A stretch of 64,000 bases of DNA from Candidatus Hydrogenedens sp. (GTDB lineage Bacteria > Hydrogenedentota > Hydrogenedentia > Hydrogenedentales > Hydrogenedentaceae), in contig JBMFRC010000001.1 in the NCBI GenBank assembly GCA_049968235.1, positions 96,001-160,000 of the forward strand. The letters are read 5' to 3'. The first letter of the stretch is position 1. Each line of letters starts with the position of its first letter. Positions 7,420-51,768 of the stretch are shown one piece after another. Below the pieces are notes generated by a model. It ran no database searches and had not been told where the DNA came from. It saw only the letters and a list, made by a program, of their open reading frames with translations. The position numbers and the translations under genes are program-made.

Positions 7420-10400
7420 TTAAGAAGATTCTTTTCCAACATTGAAGAATCTGGCACCTGTAGTATCAATAATATCAGGAGTCACGAAGATTAACAAGCT
7501 GGATTGTTGAACCTCTTTTGATTTTCCACGGAAGAAAAATCCGATTAAAGGAATATCCGCAAGATATGGCATTTTTTGATTGTTATGGATGGTTTTATCT
7601 TGAACTAGACCGCCCAATACCAGAGTATCACCATCATGGACAATAACATTGGTCCATGCTGCCTGCCATGAAGTAGTTGGAAGAATAATTTCTGTTTTTG
7701 TTTCTGTTGTCCCAACAACATTTTTCTGTTCAAATTTCTTTTCTCCAATTCGTGCGCGTACTTCAGGGTTTAACCATAGACGCACCTGGTCATTATCACG
7801 AATTTGTGGAGTTACAGAAAGAGCAATACCGAAGTTGAATGGACTGAATTGGGGTTGTGTAATTACGGATTGTGTTTGAGAACCTCCAAAACCTCCTTCG
7901 GTTACATATACTTCATTATATACTTGCGTGAGATAATATTCTGTCTGGAAATCAGCCACTACTGCTGGTTTTCGGTTCATCGTTGTAACACGTGGAGCGC
8001 TTAACAATTCGGACTCTCTCAAACTATTTAGGTAATCAAATGCTACACTTAACTGGTCACCATCAGCATTATCAATTATTTTGGTTATTAAACTTAAAGT
8101 TGATGCGGCCGCAGCAGGAGCAGGTGGGTTAACTAACCCTGAAATGGTTCCTTGCGTTACTGAATTACGAACTACATTACTACCATCGGGTCGAACATAG
8201 AAAGGAACTTCTTCATCAACACCATCACCATTTATATCGTAACTGTAAGTTTGTTGAGATAGATAATCATTCTGACGAACTCTATTATTTAAATCACTTA
8301 GATTTCCCGTCCAGTTGAAACCTATTTTCTTCAAATCCTCAATACGCACCGTTAAAAATTTTGCTTCAATACTTACCTGTTTGGGGGTAACATCAATCTG
8401 TCCTAAAATCTGTTCAAATTTGTCCAGGTTTGTAGGAGTATTTGTTACGATTAACATATTTGTGGCTTCATTATAAGCAATTTTAGACAACACCTCACCT
8501 GTATAGGGTTCTTTCACAGGAGGGATGGCATCGGCAAGAATCTGTAATCCGGATAATTCCGTTTCTTCAAAACCAGCACCAGCACCTAACTGTGCTGTTC
8601 CCTGGGCACCACCATAACCTGTGGCTGTGGTTCCCGTTGCTAATGTTCCTCTACCCCCCAAACCACCTATGCCGGCACCTGTACCAACTTGAGTAATACC
8701 GATAGGACCTAATTCACCAACTATTTGGTCACTAATGGTAGAAAACATATCCGAAATATTGCTTAATGTTGTAACATCTCTTCCATAACCGCCGCCATAT
8801 CCACCCATTCCACCACCATACATTCCGCCACCATATCCGCCATATCCACCCATTCCACCACCATACATTCCGCCACCATATCCGCCATATCCGCCCATTC
8901 CACCACGATATCCGCCCATTCCACCACCATACATCCCTCCGCCATATCCACCGCCATACATTCCACCGCCATATCCACCACCATACATTCCACCGCCATA
9001 TCCACCACCATATCCGCCACCGCCATACATCCCACCGCCATATCCACCGCCATACATTCCACCGCCATATCCGCCACCATATCCGCCACCGCCATACATC
9101 CCACCGCCATATCCGCCCATTCTACCTCCATAACTTACGCCATATCCGCCACCATAACCTCCACCTACCCCGCCAACACCACCGAATGGATTTCTTAATA
9201 CTAATTTAAATAGACGGTCAGAACCGACATTTCTCATTTCATAAAATCGTGTTTCTAATGCTTCGAAAGTTTCCTGACGGATAATTTCAGGTTTACTAAT
9301 CCATACAAATCCTGGTTGAACAGAGAAATCCAAACCTAAGGGACGGAGTAAAGCTTTTAATGCTTCTCTCAAAGTAACATCTTTAAGACTGATATAAGGA
9401 ACAATACCATTGGATTTTGTTCCATAATATACATCTGGAGATACTGCATAACCTTGTTGTCCGGGAGCACCCAGAGGAGCACCCAAGCCACCACCTTGAA
9501 GGCCACCCGGCGGGGCTCCGCCAGGACCTCCTCTTAAACCAATACCTCCAGGAGCGACACCGGGCCCTGCCATGGGGGGACGTACTCCTCCGGGAGCACC
9601 GAAGGGCTGTCCTGGAGCACCGGGCATACCCATCGCACCGGGTTGGGCTGGCTGGCCTGGTGTTTGTTGAGGTTGCTGTTTAGAAGGAGGTTCTACGGCA
9701 CGATTATCAATAACTATGTTTACACCGTAACTATCAGAAATAAATGTTGTAATTTCACTGATATGAATATCTTCGAACTCGATACTAACGATGGAATCTA
9801 AGGACTTCTCTATTTCACTTACTTTGGTTACGGGAGCGGTTTCTTCTTCTATTTCAGGTACTGTAAATTTATAAGGTTTTATTCCTCGTGCATCGGCACC
9901 TTCAGGAATTTGTTTCGATTTTTCTATAAATTCCCTCACTCGGGCACGGTCTTCTGAAACTTTTCTCTCTGATTCTTTTACAGATTCCTGGTGAAGTTTT
10001 ATTGTTGCTTGATGCAATCCTTCACGAGCTGTATCATTTTTAGGGTCAATCAGTAAAATATTGTTATAAATCTCTACTGCAATATCAAATTTTTGTGCTT
10101 CCATATACCGCTGGGCATCGGAAAGTAATTTTTGAACTCTTTCTTTCTTTAATTCTTCTGCATTTTTTTCGGGCATCTCACCGGGTTGCGCTGGTTGAAA
10201 GGTTTCAAAAGCGGGGAGTGGAGTCATTTCTTTCTTTTCGCCAATAGATAATTGTAGTTGAGCATTACATTTTTGTTGATAAACCTGTGCCTCTTTATGA
10301 TTTGGGTCCAATGCGAGAGCACGATTAAATTCTGTAAGGGCTTCACGATAAAGTTCTTTCTTGTATAGTCCGACACCTCTACGGAAATATGTTTCTGCGT

Positions 10401-10677
10401 TTTCTTCTGTTGCTGTATTTTCCGTAGAAGCATCGGAAAGAACTGCTTCCTGAACAGTCACCGGTGAGACAGGTGGAGATTTCTCTGCTTCCGTTTGTGC
10501 GCGAGCACCATGTGTTGTCATAAGGAATATGACAGTTATCATTGATACGAACATCATAAACCCAAAATAGAATTTTTTCGTGGTACGCATTCGTAATTTT
10601 TCCTCCCGTGGTCTTTTAACCGTTTGGAAGTTGTTATTATATCTATAATTATCTACTAAATGACATTCCTTTTTCAT
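7420..10677 (-). CDS. pilQ: PilQ-like secretin (1,085 aa) with an N-terminal signal peptide, a TPR region, a coiled coil, a Pro/Gly-rich segment, a Gly-Tyr tandem-repeat low-complexity domain and a C-terminal secretin domain.
   Basis: Secretin signatures are QVSIEAKFLTVRIEDLKKIGFNWTG, LSVAFDYLNSLRESELLSAPRVTTMNRKPAVV and DGDTLVLGGLVQDKTIHNNQKMPYLADIPLIGFFFRGKSKEVQQSSLLIFVTPDII. N0/STN-like modules are SLDSIVSIEFEDIHISEITTFISDSYGVNIVIDN and SLKDVTLREALKALLRPLGLDFSV. The gene is the last in a pilM-N-O-P-Q order. The probable true start is the internal MRTTKKFYFGFMMFVSMITVIFLMTTHGARAQ. Confidence 0.8.
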   Translation of the reverse strand: MKKECHLVDNYRYNNNFQTVKRPREEKLRMRTTKKFYFGFMMFVSMITVIFLMTTHGARAQTEAEKSPPVSPVTVQEAVLSDASTENTATEENAETYFRRGVGLYKKELYREALTEFNRALALDPNHKEAQVYQQKCNAQLQLSIGEKKEMTPLPAFETFQPAQPGEMPEKNAEELKKERVQKLLSDAQRYMEAQKFDIAVEIYNNILLIDPKNDTAREGLHQATIKLHQESVKESERKVSEDRARVREFIEKSKQIPEGADARGIKPYKFTVPEIEEETAPVTKVSEIEKSLDSIVSIEFEDIHISEITTFISDSYGVNIVIDNRAVEPPSKQQPQQTPGQPAQPGAMGMPGAPGQPFGAPGGVRPPMAGPGVAPGGIGLRGGPGGAPPGGLQGGGLGAPLGAPGQQGYAVSPDVYYGTKSNGIVPYISLKDVTLREALKALLRPLGLDFSVQPGFVWISKPEIIRQETFEALETRFYEMRNVGSDRLFKLVLRNPFGGVGGVGGGYGGGYGVSYGGRMGGYGGGMYGGGGYGGGYGGGMYGGGYGGGMYGGGGYGGGYGGGMYGGGYGGGMYGGGYGGGMYGGGMGGYRGGMGGYGGYGGGMYGGGMGGYGGYGGGMYGGGMGGYGGGYGRDVTTLSNISDMFSTISDQIVGELGPIGITQVGTGAGIGGLGGRGTLATGTTATGYGGAQGTAQLGAGAGFEETELSGLQILADAIPPVKEPYTGEVLSKIAYNEATNMLIVTNTPTNLDKFEQILGQIDVTPKQVSIEAKFLTVRIEDLKKIGFNWTGNLSDLNNRVRQNDYLSQQTYSYDINGDGVDEEVPFYVRPDGSNVVRNSVTQGTISGLVNPPAPAAAASTLSLITKIIDNADGDQLSVAFDYLNSLRESELLSAPRVTTMNRKPAVVADFQTEYYLTQVYNEVYVTEGGFGGSQTQSVITQPQFSPFNFGIALSVTPQIRDNDQVRLWLNPEVRARIGEKKFEQKNVVGTTETKTEIILPTTSWQAAWTNVIVHDGDTLVLGGLVQDKTIHNNQKMPYLADIPLIGFFFRGKSKEVQQSSLLIFVTPDIIDTTGARFFNVGKESS
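8760..9180. repeat. Tandem DNA repeat with a period of about 21-45 nt. It encodes the Gly-Tyr-Met repeat (GGYGGGMYGGGGYGGGYGGGMYGGG...) of the secretin.
   Basis: Units such as ccaccaccatacattccgccaccatatccgccatatccaccc recur many times between about 8810 and 9130. The alternate-frame ORF 8763..9131 (MAV..DMAV.. repeats) is an artefact of the same periodicity. Confidence 0.8.
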
Positions 10678-10689
10678 TTTTTTCCTACC

Positions 10690-11202
10690 TTATTTTTGCA
10701 TTTCTAATGTGAATCTTCTTCCATATTGTTCCGAATATATAACAACTGTTTTATCTTCAGGATTAACCTGTTCAAGAATAAACTGTTCAAATTCTTCACC
10801 TTCATCATACCATTTTGTTGTAGACCGGGTACGAAGTTGTGCTCGCCTCCGTTCTCCCACCTGGCGAATATTAAGTAAAGTAATTCCAAGGTCTTTGGCT
10901 GTAATTTCTTTTGAACCCGTAGAACCTGTAGATTCACCGGCAAAATACCAGAAGGGATTTTCTCTCCATAGAGAGGCATAAGTCCCGGGTATTGATGAGA
11001 GAGGAGGTGAAGGTGGCACAGGTGGTTTAAGTTCATCGGGGACCTCCTTCCGAGGAGGAGAATAAACTTCTTCTTTTTCCGGTGGAGGTGGATATGCAAT
11101 TACATATACCCGGTATCCTAAAATTCCTACCAGAATAAGTAAAACAAATCTTTCTTTGTTCCACCAGAACCATATTCCTATTTTTTGTATTTTGTCTATC
11201 AT
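10690..11202 (-). CDS. pilP: PilP-like pilus assembly protein with an N-terminal TM helix, a proline-rich linker and a C-terminal beta domain.
   Basis: It sits between the pilO-like and pilQ genes. The TM helix is FVLLILVGILGYRVYVIAY and the proline-rich segment is PPPPEKEEVYSPPRKEVPDELKPPVPPSPP. The C-terminus LLNIRQVGERRRAQLRTRSTTKWYDEGEEFEQFILEQVNPEDKTVVIY resembles the PilP/GspC-HR fold pattern, in which an R-rich strand is followed by a 'G...F..V...D.VV.' motif. Confidence 0.45.
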   Translation of the reverse strand: MIDKIQKIGIWFWWNKERFVLLILVGILGYRVYVIAYPPPPEKEEVYSPPRKEVPDELKPPVPPSPPLSSIPGTYASLWRENPFWYFAGESTGSTGSKEITAKDLGITLLNIRQVGERRRAQLRTRSTTKWYDEGEEFEQFILEQVNPEDKTVVIYSEQYGRRFTLEMQK

Positions 11203-11211
11203 AGTATATAT

Positions 11212-12183
11212 TTAATTTGTATATAAAATATATCGTTTAAACCATTTCCATGCTTTTGCAAAAAAACCTGCTTGTTCAGCAGAAGTATCTTTATTTACGG
11301 ATTGTCGTCTTTGTCCACCTGCTCCCATTTGTGTCTGATATTGAAGTTGAATATCAATACTCACCTCCTGAGGAGGTTTGTAATTTGCTTGTGAAATAAC
11401 CATTTCTATCTGGAGCAAAGGCTCTACATTATAAGCGATATAGGGATACTGAATTCTAAGGGCATTGATATGAAAATAACGGTCCGCTAATCGTAATTTC
11501 TGCTCTACAAAATTTACGAAATCTTTCATTGTCATATTACAGCGGACTCCAAACACAAAAAACGATAATAATTTCTCAAAATCGGGATGCTGTGAAATAG
11601 GAGGCCAGAAAACAATATCATCTATACTTACCATTTTGGAATCCAAAAGGTATTCACACATCTTGATACCAAAGGCGAGTTTTGCCAACTGTCTATTTAC
11701 TAATTCTTCCGTAACATCTGTTCTTGATATTTCATCAAGACTAAGTACTCCTAAAGATTTTCGTATATCCTGAGGGAACAGGTCATACCGACCCATCTTT
11801 TCTCCTACTTTTTCATACAGTTGTTTTACCATTTTTTGTGCTTGTTCTTCATACCAGAATTTTAATATAACACCTTCTTTAGGGGGAACTTCATGGTCTG
11901 TCCAGTTACTCAGATTAAAGAAGGAAGACCTTTTCTTTAAGGCATCTTCCCAGGGTATTACTTGGGCTCGCCATTCACGAATTAATACTTCGGGGTCTGT
12001 TCGTGAAAAGGTCTGTTCTAAGTCTTTCAGTGCATTTTCATATGCTTTTTTTAAATCTTCATCTTTCTTATAGGCTGTGAGTTGTTTCTGTAAGAAGAAA
12101 TAGTAAACACCTGTAAAAAGGAGGAATGAAAGGAGTAGAACGGTAATATAGATAAGGGTGCCTCTTGAAATAGTTATATTCAT
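11212..12183 (-). CDS. pilO: PilO-like bitopic inner-membrane protein, assigned by position and topology.
   Basis: It has an N-terminal TM helix (LIYITVLLLSFLLFTGVYYFFL) and then a coiled-coil region. It lies between pilMN and the pilP-like gene and overlaps pilMN by 4 nt. No family-specific motif was recognised, and at 323 aa it is longer than a typical PilO. Confidence 0.35.
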   Translation of the reverse strand: MNITISRGTLIYITVLLLSFLLFTGVYYFFLQKQLTAYKKDEDLKKAYENALKDLEQTFSRTDPEVLIREWRAQVIPWEDALKKRSSFFNLSNWTDHEVPPKEGVILKFWYEEQAQKMVKQLYEKVGEKMGRYDLFPQDIRKSLGVLSLDEISRTDVTEELVNRQLAKLAFGIKMCEYLLDSKMVSIDDIVFWPPISQHPDFEKLLSFFVFGVRCNMTMKDFVNFVEQKLRLADRYFHINALRIQYPYIAYNVEPLLQIEMVISQANYKPPQEVSIDIQLQYQTQMGAGGQRRQSVNKDTSAEQAGFFAKAWKWFKRYILYTN

Positions 12184-14270
12184 GACCCTGCTCCTCCTCC
12201 GGTGGGTGCTAAATCTTTTGCAGACACCCGTTCAAACTGCACTGTGATTATAAAGGTAAACAAATTTTGGCCGGTTGCTGAAAATGCTGCTGTCTGTCCT
12301 GTCTGCTGGGATAATGCCCCCAATCGTTGTTGACCCCCAAAACTTCCTGTTCCTGGAGCAGAACTACCTTGAAACGCAGACTGTGCATTATATAAAGAAC
12401 TCCAGGGAGTTACCTGTACGCTGGCTTCAGAAAAGTAAACTTCTTTAATTCTTAAAACACCTTCCGAAAGATTTAACGAGGCTTTCTTCAAATTATCCAC
12501 AAAACTTTTAATGATAGTATCCGAAGTCGCTAACCCTGTTATACGAAATCCATTTGAACGAGGTAGAGGTGGTGCCTGTTGTGTTCCCGGTGATTGCTGT
12601 GTTGTTGGGGGGGGAGGAACGTTATCTCTTCTAAAAAGCCCTCCACCACCTGTTCCGCCCATTCCTACCATAGGTCCATGTGAACCTATTCCGGGGAAGC
12701 CTGAAATATTAACTGGAGTTTGTTGTTGCGTTGGTATACCCATAGCCGGGATATTCCTGCCTGCTGGCATAGGTTGCCCTGCTTGCGGTTGCTGGATAAA
12801 AACCGTTTCGATGGAACTAAACCATATTCCGTCTTTATCGGTTCGGGGAGGTCTTGCGGATAGAACCAGAGACATTTCATCCAACCAATATCTTCTATTA
12901 TAAACCGCTTTATCCAGTGCCTTTACTTTGTTTTCTAAGATTTTAATTTCTGCCTGTGCCTTACTCAATTCCTGTTTTAGAGGAGACACAATCGTTGGAT
13001 TCTGGGCTACTTCGGGGTCGTACATTCGCACATATCGGCGGAGTTCTTCTATTCTAGCCTTGACAAACTTATTCTGTGATGCATGTACAGGAATCACAGA
13101 TGCCATTATCAAGGCAAGGGTAATCATGGACAATGCCCAGTAAATGGCTTGTTCTTTTCTCCTTCGTATTTCTATGATACGCGGGGGAATAAGATTAATT
13201 TCTAATGCGGTTGTTTCCCAATTACGGAGTGCTAATCCCAAAACGACGCAACTTCTTTCAGGATGTTGAGCAATGGATTGTGCATCAGGACCGATTGTAA
13301 TACCACTGAGAGGCTGGGCAATTCGCACATCTATCCCTAAGGCACGCTGGAGGAATGGCACAATATTCCGAAGAGCACATCCTCCTCCACATAAATAAAC
13401 TCGTGTTACCTGTCCTCCACCGGGAAGTGAACGGAAATAGGAAAAAGAACGTTGAATTTCGTTTACAAGACGGTTCAATACGCGTCCAATGGCTTCTCCT
13501 CCTTTACCGTCAATTTGAGGATTCCCTGTAGGTGCGAAGCCTTTTTCACATTTAATTTTCTCCGCTTCCTCAAAAGGAATATTGAAAGTATCTGCAATAG
13601 CCTGAGTAATATCATTTCCACCGATATTTAATGTTCTTGTATTACGGAAAATGCCGTCGCGTTCTACAACAATATTTGTGGTGGAAGCACCAAGGTCAAT
13701 TACTGCGACGCATTCACTATGTGCATGAAGTTCCCCGTTATATTTGAGCCAACTATACGAAGCGAAAGGAATAACATCCACAATGTCAGGACTTAATTTT
13801 AACCCTTCCACAATAGATAAGTATTTATCAACCACATCTGTTTTGATGGCAACCATCAGAACTTCATAACCCCCTCCTTCTGGATGGTCTAATATCTGAT
13901 AATCAATGGCTATCTGTTTCAAATCAAATGGAATTTGTTGTTGAATTTCATATCTAACAATCTGGTCTACTTTCCTCTCCGCTACGGGAGGAAGCGAACG
14001 AACACGAACAAATACGGATTGACCCGGAACGGCTAACATTAATTTTCTGGTTTTTACTTTTGCCTGTTTTAATAGTTCTGCAACTGCTTTCTTTCGTAAA
14101 TCTTTTCGTTCCTCTTCATCCATCCGAAAATCATTCGTTACAGGTTTCTCAAAATATTTTATCAACTGCAGTCCACTTTTTGTTTTCTTAAATTCGCAAA
14201 GACGAACCGCAGAAGTTCCTATCTCAATGATTACTCTCTTTTTTCCTTTTCTTGTCGTATATACTGACAT
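12180..14270 (-). CDS. pilMN: Fusion of PilM (actin-like ATPase fold) and PilN, with a C-terminal Gly/Pro/Gln/Thr-rich low-complexity tail of about 250 aa.
   Basis: PilM hallmarks are RVIIEIGTSAVRLCEF, VAVIDLGASTTNIVVERDG and VYLCGGGCALRNIVPFLQRALGIDVRIAQPL. The PilN hallmark EINLIPPRIIEIRRRKEQAIYWALSMITLALIMASVIPV is followed by a coiled coil. The tail begins QPMPAGRNIPAMGIPTQQQTPV and ends ...GSFGGQQRLGALSQQTGQTAAFSATGQN. Confidence 0.75.
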   Translation of the reverse strand: MSVYTTRKGKKRVIIEIGTSAVRLCEFKKTKSGLQLIKYFEKPVTNDFRMDEEERKDLRKKAVAELLKQAKVKTRKLMLAVPGQSVFVRVRSLPPVAERKVDQIVRYEIQQQIPFDLKQIAIDYQILDHPEGGGYEVLMVAIKTDVVDKYLSIVEGLKLSPDIVDVIPFASYSWLKYNGELHAHSECVAVIDLGASTTNIVVERDGIFRNTRTLNIGGNDITQAIADTFNIPFEEAEKIKCEKGFAPTGNPQIDGKGGEAIGRVLNRLVNEIQRSFSYFRSLPGGGQVTRVYLCGGGCALRNIVPFLQRALGIDVRIAQPLSGITIGPDAQSIAQHPERSCVVLGLALRNWETTALEINLIPPRIIEIRRRKEQAIYWALSMITLALIMASVIPVHASQNKFVKARIEELRRYVRMYDPEVAQNPTIVSPLKQELSKAQAEIKILENKVKALDKAVYNRRYWLDEMSLVLSARPPRTDKDGIWFSSIETVFIQQPQAGQPMPAGRNIPAMGIPTQQQTPVNISGFPGIGSHGPMVGMGGTGGGGLFRRDNVPPPPTTQQSPGTQQAPPLPRSNGFRITGLATSDTIIKSFVDNLKKASLNLSEGVLRIKEVYFSEASVQVTPWSSLYNAQSAFQGSSAPGTGSFGGQQRLGALSQQTGQTAAFSATGQNLFTFIITVQFERVSAKDLAPTGGGAGS

Positions 14271-14524: not shown

Positions 14525-15922
14525 TTACTTCTTCTGTGCAGATAAATTTTGGGATAAGTCTTTTACACATCGGAAGCCATAATCTGAACGATTTGAATCC
14601 ATTCTGTCAAAATGACGACGGGCACATCTTGCGTCAAATTTTTCTGTCATAAAGGAACCTCCCCTTAACACACGATAAATTTGCCCATACTCTTTTCGGA
14701 TATACTGATTTCCTTCATATCGCTGATACCAGTCTGAAACCCATTCATATGCATTCCCTGCCATATCAAAACAGCCATAAGGTGAAACGCCTCCAATATA
14801 ACTACCAATAGGGACAGGCATGTCAAGATTTTTTTCTTTTGTGTTACATAAATCTAATGAGAATTCGTTTCCCCATGGGTATTCTCTACCATCTTCACCA
14901 CGAGCGGCTTTCTCCCATTCAATTTCGGTGGGTAATCTTTTCCCCACTCTTGTCGCATATGACACAGCCTGGTCCCATGAAACACCCGTTACAGGGTAGC
15001 GCTCTTGTCCTTTGGGGAAAGTATACTCTGGAAAAACTTTTTTAAATTCTTCATTTGTTACTTCGTATTTATCAATATAAAATGCAGGAACAAAAACTTT
15101 TTTTCTTGGTGCTTCATCGGGAGAACGTTCATTTTCACCAAAAATAAATTCACCTGCTGGGACCAATACCATTCCTGGGGGGGTTTCTCCTTCTTTTAAT
15201 ACAAGTGTAATAGTTTGCTCTTTGTTTGGTTGAATAACAACTTTTGAATGTTCTTCAATAAAACCATCTGCAGAAATTGTGATTAAATATTCACCCGGCG
15301 CAAGTTGCAATTGTAAGGGTGTCTTTTGTGATTGAGGGACATTATTAATCCGAACAGTTCCACCTGTGGGACGAGATAGAATATTTATCGTTCCTTCCAT
15401 AGGTTTCAAGATATATTTTATTGGGTAGTGAAAATCTTCACGGACTTCTAAATCACCCTCAACAGGATAGTAATCTGCCAGTTGCAATTTATATGTTTTA
15501 TGTCCAATTTCTACAGGATATCGGAAAATGGGGGTATTTCCTATCTTCACCCCATCCAGATAAACTTCGGCTCCTGAGGGTTCGGTTTCAAAATTAATAT
15601 ATCCCTGTAACGGCTTTAATTGTAATAGATATTGAGAATGTTCTCCGGGACGAAGAAGCAATGTTTCCACTGTTCGTTGATAATGTTCCTTTTTTAATAT
15701 TACTTCGAGAGAACCGGGAGGGAGATCTGTCAATGTCAGAGGAGTAACTCCTTTTTCCTCTCCAAATACAATAACCGTTGCTCCCTGTTCTGGTGCAGTG
15801 TCTATTGTAACACTGCTTAATTGTTGTCTTTTCTTTTCAGAGGAACACGATAAAACAAGAGATACAACGACAATCCAACCTATACCCCATACTACAGCCT
15901 GCTTCATATTACTGTTAACCAT
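14525..15922 (-). CDS. Lipoprotein with PEGA-like beta domains and a C-terminal formylglycine-generating-enzyme (FGE-sulfatase/SUMF1, DUF323) domain.
   Basis: The lipobox-like sequence is SLVLSCSS. The FGE signature is GEFIFGENERSPDEAPRKKVFVPAFYIDKYEVTNEEFKKVF...YPVTGVSWDQAVSYATRVGKRLPTEIEWEKAARGEDGREYPWGNEF...LRGGSF. The N-terminal half has repeated PEGA-type modules (GATVIVFGEEKGVTP..., AEVYLDGVKIGNTP..., GTVRINNVPQSQKTP). Confidence 0.7.
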   Translation of the reverse strand: MVNSNMKQAVVWGIGWIVVVSLVLSCSSEKKRQQLSSVTIDTAPEQGATVIVFGEEKGVTPLTLTDLPPGSLEVILKKEHYQRTVETLLLRPGEHSQYLLQLKPLQGYINFETEPSGAEVYLDGVKIGNTPIFRYPVEIGHKTYKLQLADYYPVEGDLEVREDFHYPIKYILKPMEGTINILSRPTGGTVRINNVPQSQKTPLQLQLAPGEYLITISADGFIEEHSKVVIQPNKEQTITLVLKEGETPPGMVLVPAGEFIFGENERSPDEAPRKKVFVPAFYIDKYEVTNEEFKKVFPEYTFPKGQERYPVTGVSWDQAVSYATRVGKRLPTEIEWEKAARGEDGREYPWGNEFSLDLCNTKEKNLDMPVPIGSYIGGVSPYGCFDMAGNAYEWVSDWYQRYEGNQYIRKEYGQIYRVLRGGSFMTEKFDARCARRHFDRMDSNRSDYGFRCVKDLSQNLSAQKK

Positions 15923-15997: not shown

Positions 15998-18900
15998 TCA
16001 TTCTCGCTGGAACATTTTTATTCTTTGCTCTTCTTTGGGTTGAGAAGGTGCAGTAATAGATCTTTCACTACTTCCTGCAGGAGGATATATTGTTACTGTA
16101 ACTTTTGCAGGAGTAGTATCCGCTACTAACGCTCCTGTTGTCGTATCCTGAACAAAGGCACGAACTACAAAATCATATTTCACTTCTCGTTTTCTAAATC
16201 CACCTTCAGGAGAGCCTTCATCTCCCAATCGGTCATTAAATACACCTGAACCACACTGAGTCGGTGGTAAATTTAAAAATTCAGGAGTTGATGTATACCA
16301 ATTTAAGTTGAATCGAGTACTTGCCTCATTGGGAGATAAGAAATCGGATGGGATACAAATCTCTGCAGTAGTATCTCCATATAACATCGATGCTGTTCCG
16401 CCTGCTACTAAATTAGAATCCTCAAATATTTGTATATCAAACCCTATTCTTCCAGAAACAAATCCTTCTGAAGGCAGGATACAAGACATATTTAATTTTA
16501 CTTCAATACGATAATCACAGGCATTTTCTAATGCAGGCAAAGGAACTCTTCGTGAGGAGCCAAATTCTCTTTCTCCAAAGTTATAATTTATAAATCTCCA
16601 TGTAGTTGGGTCAGCGGTAGAACGGTTCCACCAGGAGTTTATATCTAATTTAGTATCAATATCGAATTCACAGGGGTTACGCCAGATACAGAATGGGACA
16701 TTGTTCCCCGTTATTGTGCCTAATGAGTTAAATCTATTTCCGAACAAAATATTTGGGATTGGTTGGACATTTCCAGCTTCATCTGCACCAATAATTGTTG
16801 CCATTAAGAGGGCGCCACAATACCGTTTATCACTCAGAATATCATTAAGTGTTGTGATTGAGCCATCAGCGAACACTATTGGGGTATTCTTATCCATACT
16901 TTCACGATTAATAATCCAACCCCATCGACCTACAAATCTATCTACAGCCTCCCAGATAGAAGTTTCATAATTGAATGGGTCTATCGCAGACCATATACGA
17001 ATACCAAAAATAGGAAGGCAGGGGTCAGAATTTACAGGTTTATCCGATACACTTCTTGTCAACTTCCATTGTATATGTGGGTCCTTGTCCCACGCACCTA
17101 TCCGTGGAGCGGAGATAATTTCTATGACAGGGTCTCTCATCCACCATAATTCGAGAGCATCCTGTTGAGCAGGATTTTCTACCACTAAATTGCCCGACAA
17201 ATCTTTAACTAAAAACTTCATACGAATATGCCAATCCAAACCGAAACCAAGATTGAACCATCTCCATTTAACTAACGCAGACTGCCATGGTTGTGTATAT
17301 TCTGTTTGAGATGGGTCTGTTGTAGCAAAATATTCAACACCTGGATTCGATGTGTATGAAAGAACCCGACCTATATCGTTTAATGGAGCAATAAACGCAC
17401 ATCCCAGTCCTCTAAAAGGTTCAAGTCCTGTATATACAGGTCCATTTGTGAGTAAATCTATTATTGGCGTAACAGTAGTTGTAGATACATTGGACCTATT
17501 TGTAATAAATCCAGCAACTTCGACAATCCTCGGCGAGCCATTATATTCTGGATATGGGTCAGAGTAACCTGCTTGCAATATATATTCAAGAGGTGATTGA
17601 GGTAGATTATTGAAAAACATTTGTGCTGTCGGTGAAGTTTGATTACTTATTGTCCCATAAGAATATGCCAGAGGATTAAGAACTGCAGGACCCCAATTGG
17701 GTGGATAACTAAATTGAGATGGTGGAGAGATAACATCATTATTTTGTATAACGAATCCTACTGCAGTAGCATCATACAAATCATTTCTTAAACGCGGTGG
17801 GACCGTATCAATTACGAATTCTGTATCTTCTAAATAAAAGTTTATTCTATATTCTTGATTGGTTCCAATACCCATCAAAGTTTGATTTACTCGTAAATAA
17901 ATTCTCGCTCTACCATTTGTTGTGGATAGCACTCCATCTGTATCTGTTACAAATAATGAATCCATTGTGAACACACTTCTTCCTCTTTGACGAGTAGTAT
18001 CTATCGGGACAACCACTTGTTTTAATTCTGTTGGAAGTTTATTTAATTGTGATAACGGATTAGGATTATTTTTAACCAGAGGGACATATTCTTCGGGTAC
18101 GAGGTATAAGGTAGCATCATCAAGAGTTTCTCCCTGAATTCCTACTTCTACGGTAAATTCATTTCCGATACCTATATCTCTTTCCCTACCAGTAGCGCTA
18201 CGAGGAACTGTAGGACTTACATTACAATAACTCCACAAAAGTTCTGCACCTCCAATAATTACTTCATCGGCACTTACTTGAATGTTACGGATATCCCGAA
18301 CTTCATTTTCAAAGTCCGTATAAGGGGAGGGACTGGCACAACTTGTGAGACTTAAATAGGGTATAAATATATTTGGGACATAATTCAGAACTGCTTCGAG
18401 AGAGACCCGTGACGGGATAGGAGTTATCAATTTTCCTATCCATGGGCTATCATAGAAATGAACGGAAAGAGGGTCTATCGTTATAGGCGTTCCTACTTCT
18501 GTAACGCCCGTAATGATTGGAGGATACACAAGATTCCACCCACTTATTAGACTGGCTCCTGGCTCACATACCAATCCACCACCGGTGTTGTTCCAGACTA
18601 AGGTTGCCATAACATAGGTGCTTCCCGTTCCTTTGCTTTCAACACCTATACCTCCATTAGAATAAATTGTGCTTTGTACTATTGCAGTGGTTCCATTATT
18701 CAATACACCATCGTTCAAACTCCCATAGATAACCGTTTGTAAAATGGAAGCCTTTCCATCTGGCATAACCACAACGCCATCATCAAGTTTAGGACCTATA
18801 AAAGAACGACTCACTTTACTCATTCCTTGTATATTTAGGATACCAGCACTACCCTGGGTAAGGGAAAGGTTCTCAATGCATAAATTACCATTGAGGTGAA

Positions 18901-21900
18901 CTTCTATCAATGGGAATTTATCTCTTGCAATTGCAATATCATCGACCATAAATATAGATTGGTCAAGAAACCTACAATTTTCGTAAACGAAATACAGAGT
19001 ATGGGGATTCGGTAATACTAATAACAATGGGATTTCCTGCAGAGACCAATCTCCTTCTTCAATACTTCCGGCATCCTTAACCCATACAGGTGTTCCCGTT
19101 GTGTCATCCCAGTAAACTTTTAACTTCGTTTGCTCGGGCGAAGTTCCTTTTTCAACACGGACATAAAATTGGAGTTTTGTTGCACTGGGAGGAATGTTTA
19201 TCCCTGTTTGCCATAGCATACGTTTATCGAGTTTTGGACTCTTTAATTGAGCATACCACACACCGGTGTGAGCATCAATAAAACCTGTTGGACCGCCCTG
19301 AATTATCTGGCTTTTATCGGGAGTAGCATCCCATGGTGTTGCTAATCCGGATTCAAATCCGGGGTCTAACAGTATGTTATCCAAACACACTATTGGAATA
19401 GCAGGCATAAGTATTTCATAACCTAAACATACATCATCAATAAGAAAACGCACAGGAGTTTTATCACACTCTGTCATTGCCACTCGAATTGTAAGACTAT
19501 GCGGTTGCATATCCAAGTAGGGTAATAATTCATTATCTACCATTACCAATGTATAGTTATTCCAGTAGAAAGTATCATTGGCTCTTATTTTCTTTATGAC
19601 ATGGTCATCCACTAAAATTTCTAATTCTGTGTTTGATGTACTGGTTGCATCAAGGATTTTTAACCAAAAACTCAATACAGGTAATGGATTAACAGCACCA
19701 AATCGTAAGGCTCGTGTTCCTGTTATAGGGGGTTCTGGCAGAATGCAATCAACAGGATATGCTTTGTCATAACAATGAATAGGTCCCATAAGTAAAGCGG
19801 TAGCATTTTTGTTCCATGCGGAATCGGGATTCGTTTCAAATGAAGGATTCTGCACTGCATTATCAGGACATACCCCAAATGGGTCTATCAGGACTCCTAA
19901 TTCACCATAAGGGCTTACGCAGAAATCATCAAATAGAATAGATGAGCCTGGATTTAATGAAAAGATTCTTGCTTTTATATGAATTGAAAAACTACTAATA
20001 CTCTCTTCCAGTAACGGAGGAACTAACCATCTCTCTATTTTTGTCCAGACTCCATCTACTGGCATCCCTGAAACCCGAGAGTCATAAACAATTTTCGTTA
20101 CTATGTTCTCATCATCATCTAACCATACCTTAAAGAAATCTTGACTTCCGTCTACATTTACAGGTTTAACTTGAAAGGAAATCTTTGCTGGAGGAACTCC
20201 TCCCAATTCTGCACAGAAAGGAGCCTTATTTCCGCCTGTGGGTTTAATTATAGTTGCGATAGTTCTTTCGGGTATAGGAGGGTTGGTAACTAATACCCAG
20301 GACTCATCATTTCCTGCTTCAAAATTTCCATTGGGAACACTAATGCCATTCTCAGGCAACCTTAAATTCATTAAAGGACCCACAAGAAAACGGACATCAT
20401 CTATATCAAAAGTGGTCGTATTAAAATCAACACTATCGGGTGTAAGAGCACAGGGAGAAACGGTGCTTTCAATATGAAAAGTATGTTTCGCATTATCATT
20501 TGTTAAAGGTGATGGTATTTTAACTAAAATACGGGTGTATTCTCCGGCGTTTGGAATTAAATCGGGTCTATATTCAGGGATAGGTATCCAGTTACCAGGG
20601 CTAATCTCCGCAAATATCTCTGAAGCCATTAACATACTATCAAAATAAAACCTTAATATATCTGTTGTTTTTCCACTGAATATTTTTATTTTTATGAACA
20701 TCTCTACCCAGACTTCCCTCGGGGATATAGGAGAAGGACCTAAAATAAGGCATCTATCAGGAGGGAGACCCAACGGGTCATTTCCAATAGACCAATTCCC
20801 TTCGCCTGACCAGCCGATACATCCAACATCATCAAAGCTACCACAGACAATTGGAATTTCGGCAGTACTCATTCCCATATCTAAAAATATACGGAAATCA
20901 TCCAGATAAACAGTATTTTCACCTATACCCAATTTTGAAATCCGAAGCACAACGATAGGTACATCTAATGGATTATACTGTTGAATTAATGAAGTAACAT
21001 CGATATTCCATGTTATCCAATTCATTGGATTGGGTATTGCGGACAAAGGAATGGTATAAGTAGTAGATTCGTTCAACATTTCAATATATATTTCGACTTT
21101 ATCTCCGGAATCCACAGGGTCCGCACTACGCATAATTTCAAATTTCAGTTGTGCGGAAACAAGGTTCGGAAGGTCAATAGGCAATTGAGCAGAAAGAGAA
21201 AGGGTATTCTCCATATAGGAGATACCTGTTGGTTCTGTGCCTTTAGGGAAATCTATAGGTTGTGTCTGAAGTATATCTATAGCAGAGAGAACCTTAGGAA
21301 AAGTAATATCTTGCCAGACTTCCGGATAACCTGCTATGAGATAGGGGTCTCCTGATAAAGGGTCTTCTGTGAACTGGAAATTTTGATATATCTGGTCAGG
21401 TTCAAAGGGTTCATTTATTCCCTTAAACGAGGCTAAATGTGTGGGACTTAAAGCAAGAGTATTTTCCTCAATAATAGAGTAGGCCGGGTCATCCGGGTCT
21501 GGTGGGTCTACAAGTATATTCCAATCTGTCGAAGGAGATAGTTCAAAATTACTATTTTTTATAACTCCTTTGAATATATTATTTCCCATGATAATGACAT
21601 CCGTAGGTAAGATAGCAGAAGAAGGAGTTGTAGGGTTAGGAACACCTTTAAGCGTAATATCGCGATTGATGATAATCGGTTGTTTAATTTCATAAATGGT
21701 AGGAGTAGTAGTATCTGCCTCAATATGAAAAGTAGTTTCTAATGGGTTATTTAAAATAATATCAATGATATTATCTCCGGGATGTATAATAGTCTCTGCT
21801 TTTATACTTGAATGTAATGTTATGAATAGCAGTAGGAAAAATAAAGGGATATTTTTTGATAACTTCTCATTTACAGAATCCGTTTTATAACCCCTTTTTC

Positions 21901-21919
21901 GTCTTATTTGTTTTTTCAT
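15998..21919 (-). CDS. Giant secreted protein (1,973 aa) at the pilY1 position of the minor-pilin operon. It is a candidate pilus-associated adhesin.
   Basis: It has a Sec-type signal peptide (NIPLFFLLLFITLHSSIKAETI) and a long uninterrupted ORF immediately downstream of the PilX_N-type giant gene, separated by a 3-nt gap. No catalytic motifs were recognised. The PilY1-like role is inferred from synteny only. Confidence 0.5.
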   Translation of the reverse strand: MKKQIRRKRGYKTDSVNEKLSKNIPLFFLLLFITLHSSIKAETIIHPGDNIIDIILNNPLETTFHIEADTTTPTIYEIKQPIIINRDITLKGVPNPTTPSSAILPTDVIIMGNNIFKGVIKNSNFELSPSTDWNILVDPPDPDDPAYSIIEENTLALSPTHLASFKGINEPFEPDQIYQNFQFTEDPLSGDPYLIAGYPEVWQDITFPKVLSAIDILQTQPIDFPKGTEPTGISYMENTLSLSAQLPIDLPNLVSAQLKFEIMRSADPVDSGDKVEIYIEMLNESTTYTIPLSAIPNPMNWITWNIDVTSLIQQYNPLDVPIVVLRISKLGIGENTVYLDDFRIFLDMGMSTAEIPIVCGSFDDVGCIGWSGEGNWSIGNDPLGLPPDRCLILGPSPISPREVWVEMFIKIKIFSGKTTDILRFYFDSMLMASEIFAEISPGNWIPIPEYRPDLIPNAGEYTRILVKIPSPLTNDNAKHTFHIESTVSPCALTPDSVDFNTTTFDIDDVRFLVGPLMNLRLPENGISVPNGNFEAGNDESWVLVTNPPIPERTIATIIKPTGGNKAPFCAELGGVPPAKISFQVKPVNVDGSQDFFKVWLDDDENIVTKIVYDSRVSGMPVDGVWTKIERWLVPPLLEESISSFSIHIKARIFSLNPGSSILFDDFCVSPYGELGVLIDPFGVCPDNAVQNPSFETNPDSAWNKNATALLMGPIHCYDKAYPVDCILPEPPITGTRALRFGAVNPLPVLSFWLKILDATSTSNTELEILVDDHVIKKIRANDTFYWNNYTLVMVDNELLPYLDMQPHSLTIRVAMTECDKTPVRFLIDDVCLGYEILMPAIPIVCLDNILLDPGFESGLATPWDATPDKSQIIQGGPTGFIDAHTGVWYAQLKSPKLDKRMLWQTGINIPPSATKLQFYVRVEKGTSPEQTKLKVYWDDTTGTPVWVKDAGSIEEGDWSLQEIPLLLVLPNPHTLYFVYENCRFLDQSIFMVDDIAIARDKFPLIEVHLNGNLCIENLSLTQGSAGILNIQGMSKVSRSFIGPKLDDGVVVMPDGKASILQTVIYGSLNDGVLNNGTTAIVQSTIYSNGGIGVESKGTGSTYVMATLVWNNTGGGLVCEPGASLISGWNLVYPPIITGVTEVGTPITIDPLSVHFYDSPWIGKLITPIPSRVSLEAVLNYVPNIFIPYLSLTSCASPSPYTDFENEVRDIRNIQVSADEVIIGGAELLWSYCNVSPTVPRSATGRERDIGIGNEFTVEVGIQGETLDDATLYLVPEEYVPLVKNNPNPLSQLNKLPTELKQVVVPIDTTRQRGRSVFTMDSLFVTDTDGVLSTTNGRARIYLRVNQTLMGIGTNQEYRINFYLEDTEFVIDTVPPRLRNDLYDATAVGFVIQNNDVISPPSQFSYPPNWGPAVLNPLAYSYGTISNQTSPTAQMFFNNLPQSPLEYILQAGYSDPYPEYNGSPRIVEVAGFITNRSNVSTTTVTPIIDLLTNGPVYTGLEPFRGLGCAFIAPLNDIGRVLSYTSNPGVEYFATTDPSQTEYTQPWQSALVKWRWFNLGFGLDWHIRMKFLVKDLSGNLVVENPAQQDALELWWMRDPVIEIISAPRIGAWDKDPHIQWKLTRSVSDKPVNSDPCLPIFGIRIWSAIDPFNYETSIWEAVDRFVGRWGWIINRESMDKNTPIVFADGSITTLNDILSDKRYCGALLMATIIGADEAGNVQPIPNILFGNRFNSLGTITGNNVPFCIWRNPCEFDIDTKLDINSWWNRSTADPTTWRFINYNFGEREFGSSRRVPLPALENACDYRIEVKLNMSCILPSEGFVSGRIGFDIQIFEDSNLVAGGTASMLYGDTTAEICIPSDFLSPNEASTRFNLNWYTSTPEFLNLPPTQCGSGVFNDRLGDEGSPEGGFRKREVKYDFVVRAFVQDTTTGALVADTTPAKVTVTIYPPAGSSERSITAPSQPKEEQRIKMFQRE

Positions 21920-36831: not shown

Positions 36832-37941
36832 CTATGCAACTTCTCCTTCTTTCTTGGGAGCAGGTCCACCTTCAATACCCAAAGCACGCGCAGCCGCTTC
36901 AAATTCATCCGGCATCTGTGCTTTGGCAAGGCAGTCTTCATATTTGCAAATACCCTTACGATACAGGGCAAGTAGATGTTCATCCAGCAAATTCATACCA
37001 TACTTATGTCCCGTCTGAATAGCGGATGTAATACGATAGGTTTTATTTTCACGAATTAAGTTTTGAATAGCAGGGGTACAATACATAATTTCATACGCAG
37101 CCACACGACCAAAACCACTTTTCCGGGGGACAAGAGTCTGGGAAATCACTGCTTTTAAGTTACCTGCTAACTGGGTCCGAATTTGTTCCTGCTGGTTTGA
37201 TGGGAAAGCGTCCACGACACGGTCTACCGTTCTCACCGCACCTGTGGTGTGAAGGGTTGCGAATACAAGGTGCCCCGTTTCGGCTGCGGTAATTGCCGCT
37301 TCGATAGTTTCGAGGTCACGCATTTCCCCGACGAGAATTACATCCGGGTCCATACGCAATGCTCTTCTCAAAGCCTCTGCGAAAGTCGGTACATCTACAC
37401 CTACTTCACGCTGGGTAATAATTCCTTTTTTATGGGTGTGATAGTATTCTATTGGGTCTTCAATAGTAATAATATGAGAATCTAAATTAGTATTAATCCA
37501 ATCAAGCATGGTAGCCAATGTTGTTGTTTTTCCGGAACCCGTGGGTCCTGTAATCAGAACCAATCCACGCGGTTGTCGGAGTAAGTTTTCTATATGTCGG
37601 GGCAAACCTAATTCTTCAAAAGTTAGTATTTTGCGAGGGATTAGTCGCAATACGATACCTACATACCCCTTTTGTTTAAAAATAGCCACACGGAAACGTG
37701 CAATATCCTCAAATGCGAAACCGAAGTCAGAACCACCTACTTCTTGCAATTCTTGTTGATTATCTACAGAAGCAATACTTTTCATTAATCGTTCGGTATC
37801 TTCGGGCGTTAATGGGTCTTCACCAAAGAAAACCAATCGACCGTGAACTCTTCCCACAGGAGGATTATCCACCGCAAGATGTAAGTCAGAGCCTTCACGG
37901 TCTATCAACATCCGCAATAAACTTACCATTTCATAAGCCAT
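36832..37941 (-). CDS. pilT: Twitching-motility retraction ATPase PilT.
   Basis: The whole 369-aa protein is close to canonical PilT: [77 protein letters not shown] and AIQNLIRE. The size is typical. Confidence 0.9.
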
Positions 37942-40531: not shown

Positions 40532-40548
40532 TTTCTCTACCTCATTTG

Positions 40549-43364: not shown

Positions 43365-43372
43365 GGTAATTT

Positions 43373-44260: not shown

Positions 44261-44263
44261 AAA

Positions 44264-45597: not shown

Positions 45598-45642
45598 AAT
45601 TTTAATATTTATACCTCATGCAAAAAATAATATCCTGCGGAA

Positions 45643-46038: not shown

Positions 46039-46041
46039 GTT

Positions 46042-47280: not shown

Positions 47281-47327
47281 ATTTTCTCAAAATATTATAA
47301 AGGGGTGTTTTTTTTCTTGCTTTCTTT

Positions 47328-51724: not shown

Positions 51725-51768
51725 GTTTCAACTCCTAATATATAAATATTTGTTGTTCATATCTATAA

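What the first reader, a model, noticed from the sequence alone, without database searches (positions are those of the whole stretch)
12180..14270. PilM-PilN fusion with a C-terminal Gly/Pro/Gln/Thr-rich tail of about 250 aa
The cytoplasmic actin-like PilM and the bitopic PilN are normally separate proteins, and PilM binds the short cytoplasmic N-terminus of PilN. Here they are a single 696-aa polypeptide. A PilN-like TM helix (AIYWALSMITLALIMASVIPV) and coiled coil follow the PilM domain. A long low-complexity periplasmic tail then follows (…GIPTQQQTPVNISGFPGIGSHGPMVGMGGTGGGGL…PPPPTTQQSPGTQQAPPLP…GSFGGQQRLGALSQQTGQTAAF). Fusion hard-wires the PilM-PilN interaction. The tail could reach toward the secretin or peptidoglycan.
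Basis: partly seen in the sequence, partly recalled or inferred. Interest (0 to 1): 0.55.

Follow-up and report, generated by a model that had tools for sequence, protein, structure and literature searches.

The report
Natural PilM-PilN fusion, looped PilN domain
This gene encodes a type IV pilus assembly protein in which the cytoplasmic PilM and the membrane-spanning PilN are one chain, an arrangement found across the whole phylum Hydrogenedentota and already known from other bacteria, and its supposed long floppy tail is really two flexible loops inside a folded PilN domain.

Summary
The 696-aa ORF (12180-14270, minus strand) is real. It is not a frameshift artefact: 72 of 73 complete orthologues from species-level genomes, nearly all titled Hydrogenedentota, are single ORFs of 634-824 aa.

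- **PilM part.** Residues 15-350 are a full PilM domain that scores above the curated cut-offs.
- **PilN part.** Residues 358-363 (INLIPP) are the PilN N-terminal signature. A basic patch, one TM helix and a helical hairpin follow.
- **Pfam.** PilN (PF05137) does not hit, even at E<=10.
- **The "tail".** It is not a tail. It is two Gly/Pro/Gln-rich loops (494-573 and 633-668) inserted in the PilN ferredoxin-like core. The last strand of that core is at 669-683, and only about 9 residues are a free tail.

The gene heads a pilMN-(PilO slot)-(PilP slot)-secretin operon.

Natural PilM-PilN fusions are already described in C. difficile and in Campylobacterota, and the NCBIfam Amuc_1101 family model spans the same layout. 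GspL is the type II secretion equivalent. I rate it a new member of a known kind, of modest interest.

The parts
12180..14270 (-). pilMN: single 696-aa ORF including the stop codon
   Evidence: The identical protein is in NCBI as 'type IV pilus assembly protein PilM [Candidatus Hydrogenedens sp.]'.
13221..14228 (-). PilM actin-like ATPase domain, residues 15-350
   Evidence: PF11104 E 5e-47 over profile positions 2-339 of 340. TIGR01175 174 bits against cut-off 133. M. xanthus PilM 3jc8 E 5.5e-38. Foldseek to 5eou, 2ych and 3jc8 gives TM 0.82-0.85.
13200..13220 (-). 7-residue linker WETTALE, residues 351-357
   Evidence: It aligns with the linker of the engineered chimera 5eou with one 1-residue gap. 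pLDDT is 86-88 in the full-length model.
13182..13199 (-). INLIPP, the PilN N-terminal signature that binds PilM in known systems, residues 358-363
   Evidence: It aligns with RINLLPWR of 5eou and with INLLP of canonical PilN. L360, P362 and P363 are invariant in 65 sequences. The motif is present in 78 of 80 species loci. It is the only such motif followed by a TM helix in the window.
13149..13181 (-). Basic juxtamembrane segment RIIEIRRRKEQ, residues 364-374 (positive-inside)
   Evidence: Direct reading. R370 and E373 are nearly invariant. It aligns with the RKKE of PilN.
13086..13148 (-). Single transmembrane helix, residues 375-395
   Evidence: 21 hydrophobic residues. It is part of a continuous helix in both models. 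Y377, W378, S381 and P394 are conserved.
12900..13085 (-). Periplasmic helical hairpin / coiled-coil region, residues 396-457
   Evidence: AlphaFold2 helices 363-417, 419-423 and 430-457. It aligns with the PilN coiled-coil segment.
12792..12899 (-). PilN core, first half (helix 463-471, strands 482-493), residues 458-493
   Evidence: pLDDT about 90. hhalign matches WLDEM and IWFSSIET to PilN LLD.M and RMWFT.
12552..12791 (-). Loop 1: 80-aa Pro/Gly/Gln-rich insertion, residues 494-573
   Evidence: pLDDT <50 for most of it. Composition P 20%, G 19%, Q 12%. Length is 43-151 aa (median 84) in 73 orthologues. It sits between PilN profile positions 121 and 125.
12690..12701 (-). Conserved GFPG motif inside loop 1, residues 524-527
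   Evidence: F525 and G527 are at least 90% conserved in 65 sequences. GFPG occurs in 41 of 73 orthologues, and about 60 of 73 have GF.G. A short strand is predicted at 521-524, with pLDDT about 69.
12375..12551 (-). PilN core, second half (strand-helix-strand-strand), residues 574-632
   Evidence: pLDDT 88-95. A weak match in the same order to PilN positions 125-151. Part of the domain matched by the GspL, PilO and PilN structures.
12267..12374 (-). Loop 2: 36-aa Gly/Gln/Ser-rich insertion, residues 633-668
   Evidence: pLDDT <50 for 636-660. Composition. Length is 8-69 aa (median 32) in orthologues.
12210..12266 (-). Last strand of the PilN core plus a short helix, residues 669-687
   Evidence: AlphaFold2 strand 669-683, pLDDT about 94. 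F673 is nearly invariant.
12183..12209 (-). True C-terminal tail, 9 residues (APTGGGAGS)
   Evidence: pLDDT <50 for 689-696. Sequence.
11212..12183 (-). Downstream 323-aa bitopic protein in the PilO position; its ATG overlaps the pilMN stop codon (ATGA)
   Evidence: The family was found only in Hydrogenedentota (34 homologues) and has no Pfam hit. Weak T2SSM hits in 3 of 31 members. The same position is kept in L001. Canonical operons have PilO there. PilO homology is not shown.
10690..11202 (-). 170-aa protein (TM helix, Pro-rich linker, small C-terminal domain) in the PilP position
   Evidence: Orthologues lie beside pilMN in 62 fetched related ORFs. hhalign against PilP is not significant, E 0.19. 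The assignment is positional only.
7420..10677 (-). 1085-aa secretin (PilQ position) with an N-terminal TPR and Gly-rich inserts
   Evidence: PF00263 E 1.8e-35, TPR_2. TIGR02515 PilQ E 8e-42, below its cut-off.

Best explanation
This is the inner-membrane assembly/alignment subunit of a type IVa pilus machine in a Candidatus Hydrogenedens genome. PilM and PilN are encoded as one polypeptide (PilMN).

The parts, in order:
- The cytoplasmic PilM actin-like domain (15-350).
- A 7-residue linker.
- The PilN signature INLIPP (358-363). In split systems this is the peptide that sits in the PilM groove.
- A positive-inside patch and one TM helix (375-395), which put the rest of the protein in the periplasm.
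- A helical hairpin (396-457).
- A PilN/GspL-type ferredoxin-like core (458-687).

The core is interrupted by two disordered Gly/Pro/Gln-rich loops, at 494-573 (with a conserved GFPG motif) and at 633-668.

Inferred mechanism:
- The fusion fixes a 1:1 PilM:PilN ratio. INLIPP probably docks on its own PilM domain (in cis).
- The PilM ring engages the PilB and PilT ATPases and PilC, which are encoded in the same strand-wise cluster.
- The periplasmic core pairs with the translationally coupled 323-aa protein in the PilO position. Through the 170-aa protein in the PilP position it connects to the secretin.
- The loops are lineage-specific flexible insertions at a site that also tolerates insertions in some stand-alone PilN proteins. 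Their role is unknown. It may be spacing or partner contact through GFPG.

Shown here: domain identities, topology elements, homology to PilN, fold, conservation and synteny.

Inferred, not shown: cis docking, the PilO and PilP partners, and any function of the loops.
For: - **PilM.**
- **INLIPP equals the PilN N-terminus.**
- **PilN homology.** hhalign 96.6%, E 6.9e-10, with the second and third segments matching in the same order.
- **Profile search of 1.84 billion representatives.** The C-terminal-half profile finds fused relatives and one stand-alone PilN (P0214) that pass PF05137.
- **Loops are internal.**
- **Hints of cis docking.** Residues 351-370 have pLDDT 86-88 in the full-length model, against 47-64 when the PilM domain is absent. 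The model resembles PilN-bound PilM (5eou TM 0.82, 2ych 0.85) more than PilN-free PilM (0.69-0.71).
- **Conserved single ORF.**
- **Operon and T4aP context.** PilT TIGR01420 scores 461 bits against cut-off 319. Two PilB-like ATPases, PilC and pilins are also present. Synteny is kept in L001. Gene order matches canonical pilMNOPQ operons.
Against: - PF05137 does not match this protein at any reported E-value.
- A HMMER profile of the C-terminal half finds no PilN, PilO or GspL chain in the PDB.
- The downstream 323-aa and 170-aa proteins show no significant profile similarity to PilO or PilP. The partner assignments therefore rest on position and topology only.
- No model coordinates were available, so INLIPP-groove contacts were not measured.
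- There are no experimental data for this phylum.
Confidence: 0.85

Rival explanations
1. It is a GspL-type protein. On this reading it is the assembly-platform subunit of a type II secretion or other non-pilus type IV filament system, not a pilus PilMN.
For: - GspL has the same layout: an actin-like cytoplasmic domain, a TM helix and a ferredoxin-like periplasmic domain (PMC4471445).
- There is a weak T2SSL hit of 18.1 bits.
- Giant secreted-looking ORFs lie between the pilin genes and this gene.
Against: - T2SSL is below its cut-off (18.1 bits against 25.5), while PilM_2 and TIGR01175 match full-length and above cut-off.
- The INLIPP signature is that of PilN.
- The window has a separate complete T2SS with its own GspL-like gene at 40549-42108. 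That protein shares only 25% identity over 167 residues with this one.
- A PilT-family retraction ATPase is in the same cluster.
Confidence: 0.08
2. The C-terminal half is not PilN. It is a lineage-specific periplasmic module with a long disordered tail, which is the anatomy the first reader described.
For: - No PF05137 hit.
- No PDB hit by HMMER profile.
- The module is narrow: only 63 representative clusters at E<=1e-3 among 1.84 billion.
- 116 of the last 203 residues are low complexity.
Against: - hhalign to canonical PilN gives 96.6% probability.
- The fold matches the GspL, PilO and PilN domains over nearly their whole length at about 2.3 A.
- Confident strands at 574-632 and 669-683 flank the low-complexity stretches.
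- The last strand is conserved (F673).
Confidence: 0.04
3. The single ORF is an assembly or sequencing artefact, such as a lost stop codon or a frameshift, that joins separate pilM and pilN genes.
For: None was found. One of 73 complete orthologues is short (453 aa, L077), which is more likely an error in that genome.
Against: - 72 of 73 complete orthologous ORFs from different species genomes are 634-824 aa and carry the motif at about residue 356.
- All 120 listed database homologues except two truncated ones (485 and 615 aa) are 645-800 aa.
- The identical sequence occurs in several independent assemblies.
Confidence: 0.01

Closest known systems
Natural PilM-PilN fusions of type IVa pilus clusters: C. 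difficile PilMN (PMC6916266, citing Melville and Craig 2013) and most Campylobacterota pilMNOPQ clusters (bioRxiv 10.1101/2025.02.19.638559)
   Same: One gene encodes PilM followed by PilN, at the head of a pilMNOPQ-type operon. The fusion is taken as support for the PilM-PilN interaction.
   Different: This one is in a different phylum (Hydrogenedentota). Its PilN core is too diverged and too interrupted to pass PF05137. It carries two Gly/Pro-rich loops of 43-151 and 8-69 aa, and the downstream proteins in the PilO and PilP positions are unrecognisable by profile. I did not align it to the Campylobacterota or Clostridioides proteins.
NCBIfam NF045709, Amuc_1101 family PilM-like pilus complex protein (Akkermansia/Verrucomicrobiota)
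   Same: It is the best NCBIfam hit (E 4.4e-82). The match runs from the PilM domain through the TM helix and coiled coil into the first half of the periplasmic core (residues 11-498 against model positions 6-482 of 608). The model also aligns over positions 8-577 with an Omnitrophota fused PilM-PilN that passes PF05137, so the family model appears to have the same fused layout. Both lie upstream of a secretin: the Amuc_1098 family model hits the secretin here (E 1e-41).
   Different: The score of 276.8 bits is far below the 650-bit equivalog cut-off, so this protein is not a member. The last 126 model positions are unmatched. The 323-aa neighbour has no detectable similarity to Amuc_1100.
GspL (XcpY, EpsL, PulL) of type II secretion
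   Different: The cytoplasmic domain here is a complete PilM with the INLIPP peptide, not the reduced GspL domain. T2SSL is below its cut-off. A separate GspL-like gene serves the T2SS in the same window.
Canonical split PilM + PilN (P. aeruginosa, T. thermophilus, M. xanthus; PDB 5eou, 2ych, 3jc8, 4bhq)
   Same: PilM fold, INLLP-type peptide, TM helix, coiled coil and ferredoxin-like core, in the same order. The natural linker has the same topology as the engineered PilM:PilN(1-12) chimera 5eou and nearly the same length.
   Different: This protein is one chain instead of two, and the core is split by long loops. Some stand-alone PilN proteins (P0214, P0220, P0221, P0229) do carry 40-60-aa inserts at the same strand junction, but theirs are Lys-rich.

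Membership tests
PilM (PF11104 / TIGR01175) | Full-length match to the family model above the curated cut-off | tested here: met
   PF11104 160.9 bits against cut-off 27, profile positions 2-339 of 340. TIGR01175 174.2 bits against cut-off 133.
PilM (PF11104 / TIGR01175) | Actin-like fold resembling solved PilM structures | tested here: met
   Foldseek: 5eou_B E 3.7e-28, TM 0.82; 2ych TM 0.85; 3jc8_M TM 0.83.
PilM (PF11104 / TIGR01175) | Binds the N-terminal INLLP peptide of PilN in its groove | not testable with these tools
   Only indirect hints. The pLDDT of residues 351-370 rises from 47-64 to 86-88 when the PilM domain is present. The model is closer to PilN-bound PilM than to PilN-free PilM. 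No model coordinates were available.
PilN (PF05137) | Pfam PF05137 match above the gathering score (22.8 bits) | tested here: not met
   No hit at E<=1 on the whole protein or at E<=10 on the C-terminal half. Only 2 of 16 family members reach E 0.023.
PilN (PF05137) | Conserved N-terminal INLLP motif followed by basic residues and one TM helix (N-in) | tested here: met
   INLIPP-RIIEIRRRKEQ-TM at residues 358-395. It aligns to INLLP of 5eou and of 40 canonical PilN. It is conserved in 78 of 80 species loci.
PilN (PF05137) | Detectable homology to canonical PilN sequences | tested here: met
   hhalign of A3 against A5: 96.6% probability, E 6.9e-10, 113 columns, PilN positions 2-121. The remaining segments match weakly in the same order. 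The HMMER profile reaches proteins that pass PF05137: P0209, P0213 and P0214.
PilN (PF05137) | Periplasmic coiled coil plus ferredoxin-like core | tested here: met
PilN (PF05137) | Heterodimerises with PilO | not testable with these tools
   The 323-aa neighbour occupies the PilO position and is translationally coupled. It shows no significant similarity to PilO.
GspL (PF05134 / TIGR01709) | Match to the T2SSL/GspL model above cut-off | tested here: not met
   PF05134 18.1 bits against cut-off 25.5. TIGR01709 13.9 bits against cut-off 65.
GspL (PF05134 / TIGR01709) | Encoded within a gspC-M type II secretion cluster | tested here: not met
   The T2SS cluster (40019-52731) has its own GspL-like gene. 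This gene sits with the secretin, PilT, PilB and PilC set.
Amuc_1101 family (NF045709) | Equivalog model score of at least 650 bits | tested here: not met
   276.8 bits, E 4.4e-82, model positions 6-482 of 608.
Natural PilMN fusion proteins | PilM and PilN parts in one uninterrupted reading frame, conserved in relatives | tested here: met

The most novel reading that the evidence does not exclude
The Gly-rich loops of PilMN, with their conserved GF(P)G motif, and the Gly/Tyr/Met-rich repeat inserts of the cognate secretin would each be multiplied about 12-fold in the assembled rings. Together they could form a disordered, cohesive periplasmic collar or gasket around the pilus. That would be a low-complexity meshwork with a sealing, spacing or peptidoglycan-spanning role specific to the Hydrogenedentota envelope, and not just tolerated insertions.
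Probability: 0.06. Interest if true: 0.6.

Novelty: new member of a known kind. Interest (0 to 1): 0.25.

Why it matters
The result gives uncultured Hydrogenedentota a correctly read pilus alignment protein. Databases call it only PilM, and no PilN is annotated, so automated reconstructions would score the T4aP system as incomplete.

It adds another independent, phylum-wide natural fusion that supports the 1:1 PilM-PilN contact.

It also shows that the strand junction after the MWFT strand of PilN tolerates very long disordered insertions. That explains why PF05137 fails here, and it is useful for anyone building PilN detection models.

It does not change how type IV pili are understood.

Tried and rejected
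- **Pfam and NCBIfam on the C-terminal half alone.** No PilN hit.
- **HMMER profile of the C-terminal half against PDB sequences.** Only chance hits: diaphanous and InvG.
- **Amuc_1100 or PilO identity for the 323-aa neighbour.** phmmer and a profile against the PDB found nothing. hhalign against the PilMN C-terminal half matched only the TM region. hhalign against three canonical PilO proteins matched only the TM region, 11.6% probability. Only 3 of 31 members give weak T2SSM hits.
- **PilP identity for the 170-aa protein.** hhalign E 0.19, which is not significant, although the aligned region is the expected C-terminal domain.
- **Search for a split arrangement.** One 336-aa hit (P0163) begins at the INLIPP region with a Val start. 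It may be a truncated gene call and was not resolved. The only clear stand-alone relative is the canonical PilN P0214.
- **Fold search against afdb50.** The library was unavailable.
- **Frameshift artefact.** Rejected by the genome survey.
- **GspL identity.** Rejected on model scores and on the separate T2SS cluster.
- **Promoter scan.** It shows sigma-70-like sites in the 254-bp gap upstream (14414-14386 and 14332-14305). Across the whole scanned region the count is only modestly above shuffles (34 against 24.9), so I do not rely on it.
Full report
**Observation.** The minus-strand ORF 12180..14270 encodes 696 aa. The window is low in G+C (about 0.32-0.45). The identical protein exists in NCBI as 'type IV pilus assembly protein PilM [Candidatus Hydrogenedens sp.]'. 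The closest species genome is Candidatus Hydrogenedens terephthalaticus, at 95% identity (L003). So the window comes from a Hydrogenedentota genome, and the protein is already annotated, but only as PilM.

**N-terminal half.**
- Residues 15-350 match Pfam PilM_2 end to end (E 5e-47) and TIGR01175 above its cut-off.
- They match M. xanthus PilM at E 5.5e-38.
- The full-length AlphaFold2 model (mean pLDDT 79.7) superposes on solved PilM structures with TM 0.82-0.85.

**The junction.**
- After PilM's last helix comes WETTALE, then INLIPP (358-363), RIIEIRRRKEQ and the 21-residue hydrophobic helix 375-395.
- phmmer aligns LALRNWETTALEINLIPPR with LALRSFDSSGMARINLLPWR of PDB 5eou. That entry is the engineered P. 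aeruginosa PilM:PilN(1-12) chimera. The natural protein therefore has the same topology as the construct crystallographers made to tether the PilN peptide to PilM, and a linker of nearly the same length.
- L360, P362 and P363 are invariant in 65 aligned homologues.
- No other ORF in the window has such a motif in front of a TM helix.

**Is the C-terminal half PilN?**
PF05137 does not hit the protein or its C-terminal half at E<=10. It hits only 2 of 16 family members, at E 0.023.
- A HMMER profile of the half finds no PilN, PilO or GspL chain in the PDB.
- More sensitive tests are positive.
- The same profile, searched against 1.84 billion representatives, returns only 63 proteins. Among them are P0209 (616 aa) and P0213 (574 aa, Omnitrophota). 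Both carry PilM_2 plus PF05137 above threshold (27.1 and 38.7 bits).
- It also returns P0214, a 255-aa stand-alone PilN (23.4 bits) whose own relatives are ordinary 190-235-aa PilN proteins.
- hhalign of the C-terminal-half alignment (A3) against 40 canonical PilN (A5) gives 96.6% probability, E 6.9e-10. It covers PilN positions 2-121: INLLP, the basic patch, the TM helix, the coiled coil, the LLD.M helix and the MWFT strand.
- The next two sub-optimal alignments follow in the same order: A3 229-255 against PilN 125-151, and the last strand against 171-174.
- The AlphaFold2 model of residues 352-696 has mean pLDDT 75, with the core at 90-97.
- The other hits in that range are coiled coils with very large rmsd.
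- I conclude that the half is a diverged PilN.

**The 'tail'.**
- Both models place confident secondary structure at 463-493, 574-632 and 669-687. They place low-confidence coil at 494-573 and 633-668.
- The low-complexity sequence is therefore two loops inserted in the PilN core, not a 250-aa tail. Only about 9 residues follow the last structured element.
- Loop 1 lies exactly where hhalign breaks, between PilN positions 121 and 125.
- In 73 orthologues loop 1 is 43-151 aa (median 84) and loop 2 is 8-69 aa (median 32). Both are Gly-rich (25-28%) but otherwise variable.
- A GFPG motif in loop 1 is kept in 41 of 73 orthologues, and about 60 of 73 keep GF.G.
- Canonical PilN proteins have a median of 8 residues at this junction. 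A few stand-alone PilN proteins carry 40-60-aa Lys-rich inserts there, so the site tolerates insertions in general.

**Artefact?** No.
- All 120 listed homologues except two truncated ones (485 and 615 aa) are 645-800 aa.
- The genome survey returned 80 species-level loci, most of them titled Hydrogenedentota.
- 72 of 73 complete ORFs in the survey are 634-824 aa, and 78 of 80 carry the motif near residue 356.

**Context.**
- The gene heads a tight operon. Its stop codon overlaps the ATG of a 323-aa bitopic protein (ATGA). A 170-aa TM/Pro-rich/small-domain protein follows, and then a 1085-aa secretin.
- This is the gene order of canonical pilM-pilN-pilO-pilP-pilQ operons. The order is kept in a relative whose PilMN is 49% identical (L001).
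- Upstream on the same strand lie pilins, PilC, two PilB-like ATPases and a PilT-family ATPase that scores above its cut-off.
- Further upstream is a complete type II secretion cluster with its own GspL-like protein at 40549-42108. That protein is only 25% identical to PilMN over 167 residues. This argues against reading PilMN as a GspL.
- I could not show that the 323-aa and 170-aa proteins are PilO and PilP. The profile comparisons were not significant.

**Mechanism.**
- Shown: the domain identities, the motif, the fold, the conservation and the synteny.
- Inferred from established knowledge of T4aP machines (PMC4471445, PMC6916266): the PilM ring contacts the ATPases and PilC. The PilN part pairs with the PilO-position protein. 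The fusion fixes the stoichiometry and the PilM-PilN contact.
- Hints that docking is in cis: residues 351-370 have pLDDT 86-88 in the full-length model, against 47-64 in the fragment model. The modelled PilM domain also resembles PilN-bound PilM more than PilN-free PilM.
- The function of the loops is unknown.

**Comparison and novelty.**
- Natural PilM-PilN fusions are on record for C. difficile (PMC6916266) and for most Campylobacterota T4P clusters (bioRxiv 10.1101/2025.02.19.638559).
- The PilM-PilN complex is regarded as the GspL orthologue (PMC4471445).
- NCBIfam's Amuc_1101 family model spans the same fused layout. It hits this protein at E 4e-82 but far below its cut-off.
- A literature search for Hydrogenedentota pili found nothing specific.
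- This is a new member of a known kind, with a lineage-specific looped PilN core.
- Interest is modest. The practical value is in annotation, because PilN is 'missing' from these genomes only because it is fused and because PF05137 cannot see it.

Noticed in passing
window 40019-52731 (-), especially 40549-42108: A complete type II secretion cluster: GspC, GspD, GspE, GspF, pseudopilins, GspK, a 519-aa GspL-like protein (PilM_2, PilN at 22.0 bits just under the 22.8 cut-off, and T2SSL), and a 170-aa protein in the GspM position. The window therefore holds two different PilM/PilN-type fused proteins.
   Followed up: partly
window 7420-10677 (-); DNA repeats at 8792-9114: The secretin has an N-terminal TPR and two long Gly-rich inserts. 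One insert is encoded by DNA tandem repeats (periods 21-69 bp) that give (GGYGGGMY)n-type Gly/Tyr/Met repeats.
   Followed up: partly
window 14525-15922 (-); L001 6374-7747; L002 989-2383: A PEGA plus FGE-sulfatase-domain protein (GldK/PorK-like, E 1e-26) sits immediately upstream of pilMN. It holds the same position in two distant relatives. Its link to the pilus operon is unexplained.
   Followed up: partly
window 35023-36801 and 37964-39805 (-), flanking 36832-37941: Two PilB-like extension ATPases each carry an MshE-type cyclic-di-GMP-binding N-terminal domain (NF053729, above its cut-off). They flank a PilT-family ATPase.
   Followed up: no
window 15998-21919, 21923-29533 and 55399-63696 (-): Giant ORFs of 1973, 2536 and 2765 aa. 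The first two lie between the pilin genes and pilMN, and the third lies upstream of the T2SS cluster. The 1973-aa one has no Pfam hit. Comparable giants precede pilMN in L001.
   Followed up: no
window 11212-12183 (-): The 323-aa protein in the PilO position belongs to a family of 34 homologues; all those that carry a source name are from Hydrogenedentota. It has a conserved C-terminal KAWKWFKR..LY.N motif (W312 invariant; K313, F315, K316 and L320 nearly invariant) and no recognisable domain.
   Followed up: partly
loci L006, L037, L040, L081: Genome records titled Nitrospirales, Bathyarchaeia archaeon, FCB group or Rhodothermaeota carry the same Hydrogenedentota-type pilMN locus. The bins are probably mislabelled or contaminated.
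   Followed up: no
proteins P0214, P0220, P0221, P0229: Stand-alone PilN proteins carry 40-60-aa Lys-rich low-complexity inserts at the same strand junction as loop 1. This points to a general insertion hot spot in PilN.
   Followed up: partly
protein P0163 (336 aa, JGI): A hit that begins at the INLIPP region with a Val start and covers the whole PilN-like half. It is either a truncated gene call or a rare split version of this family.
   Followed up: no
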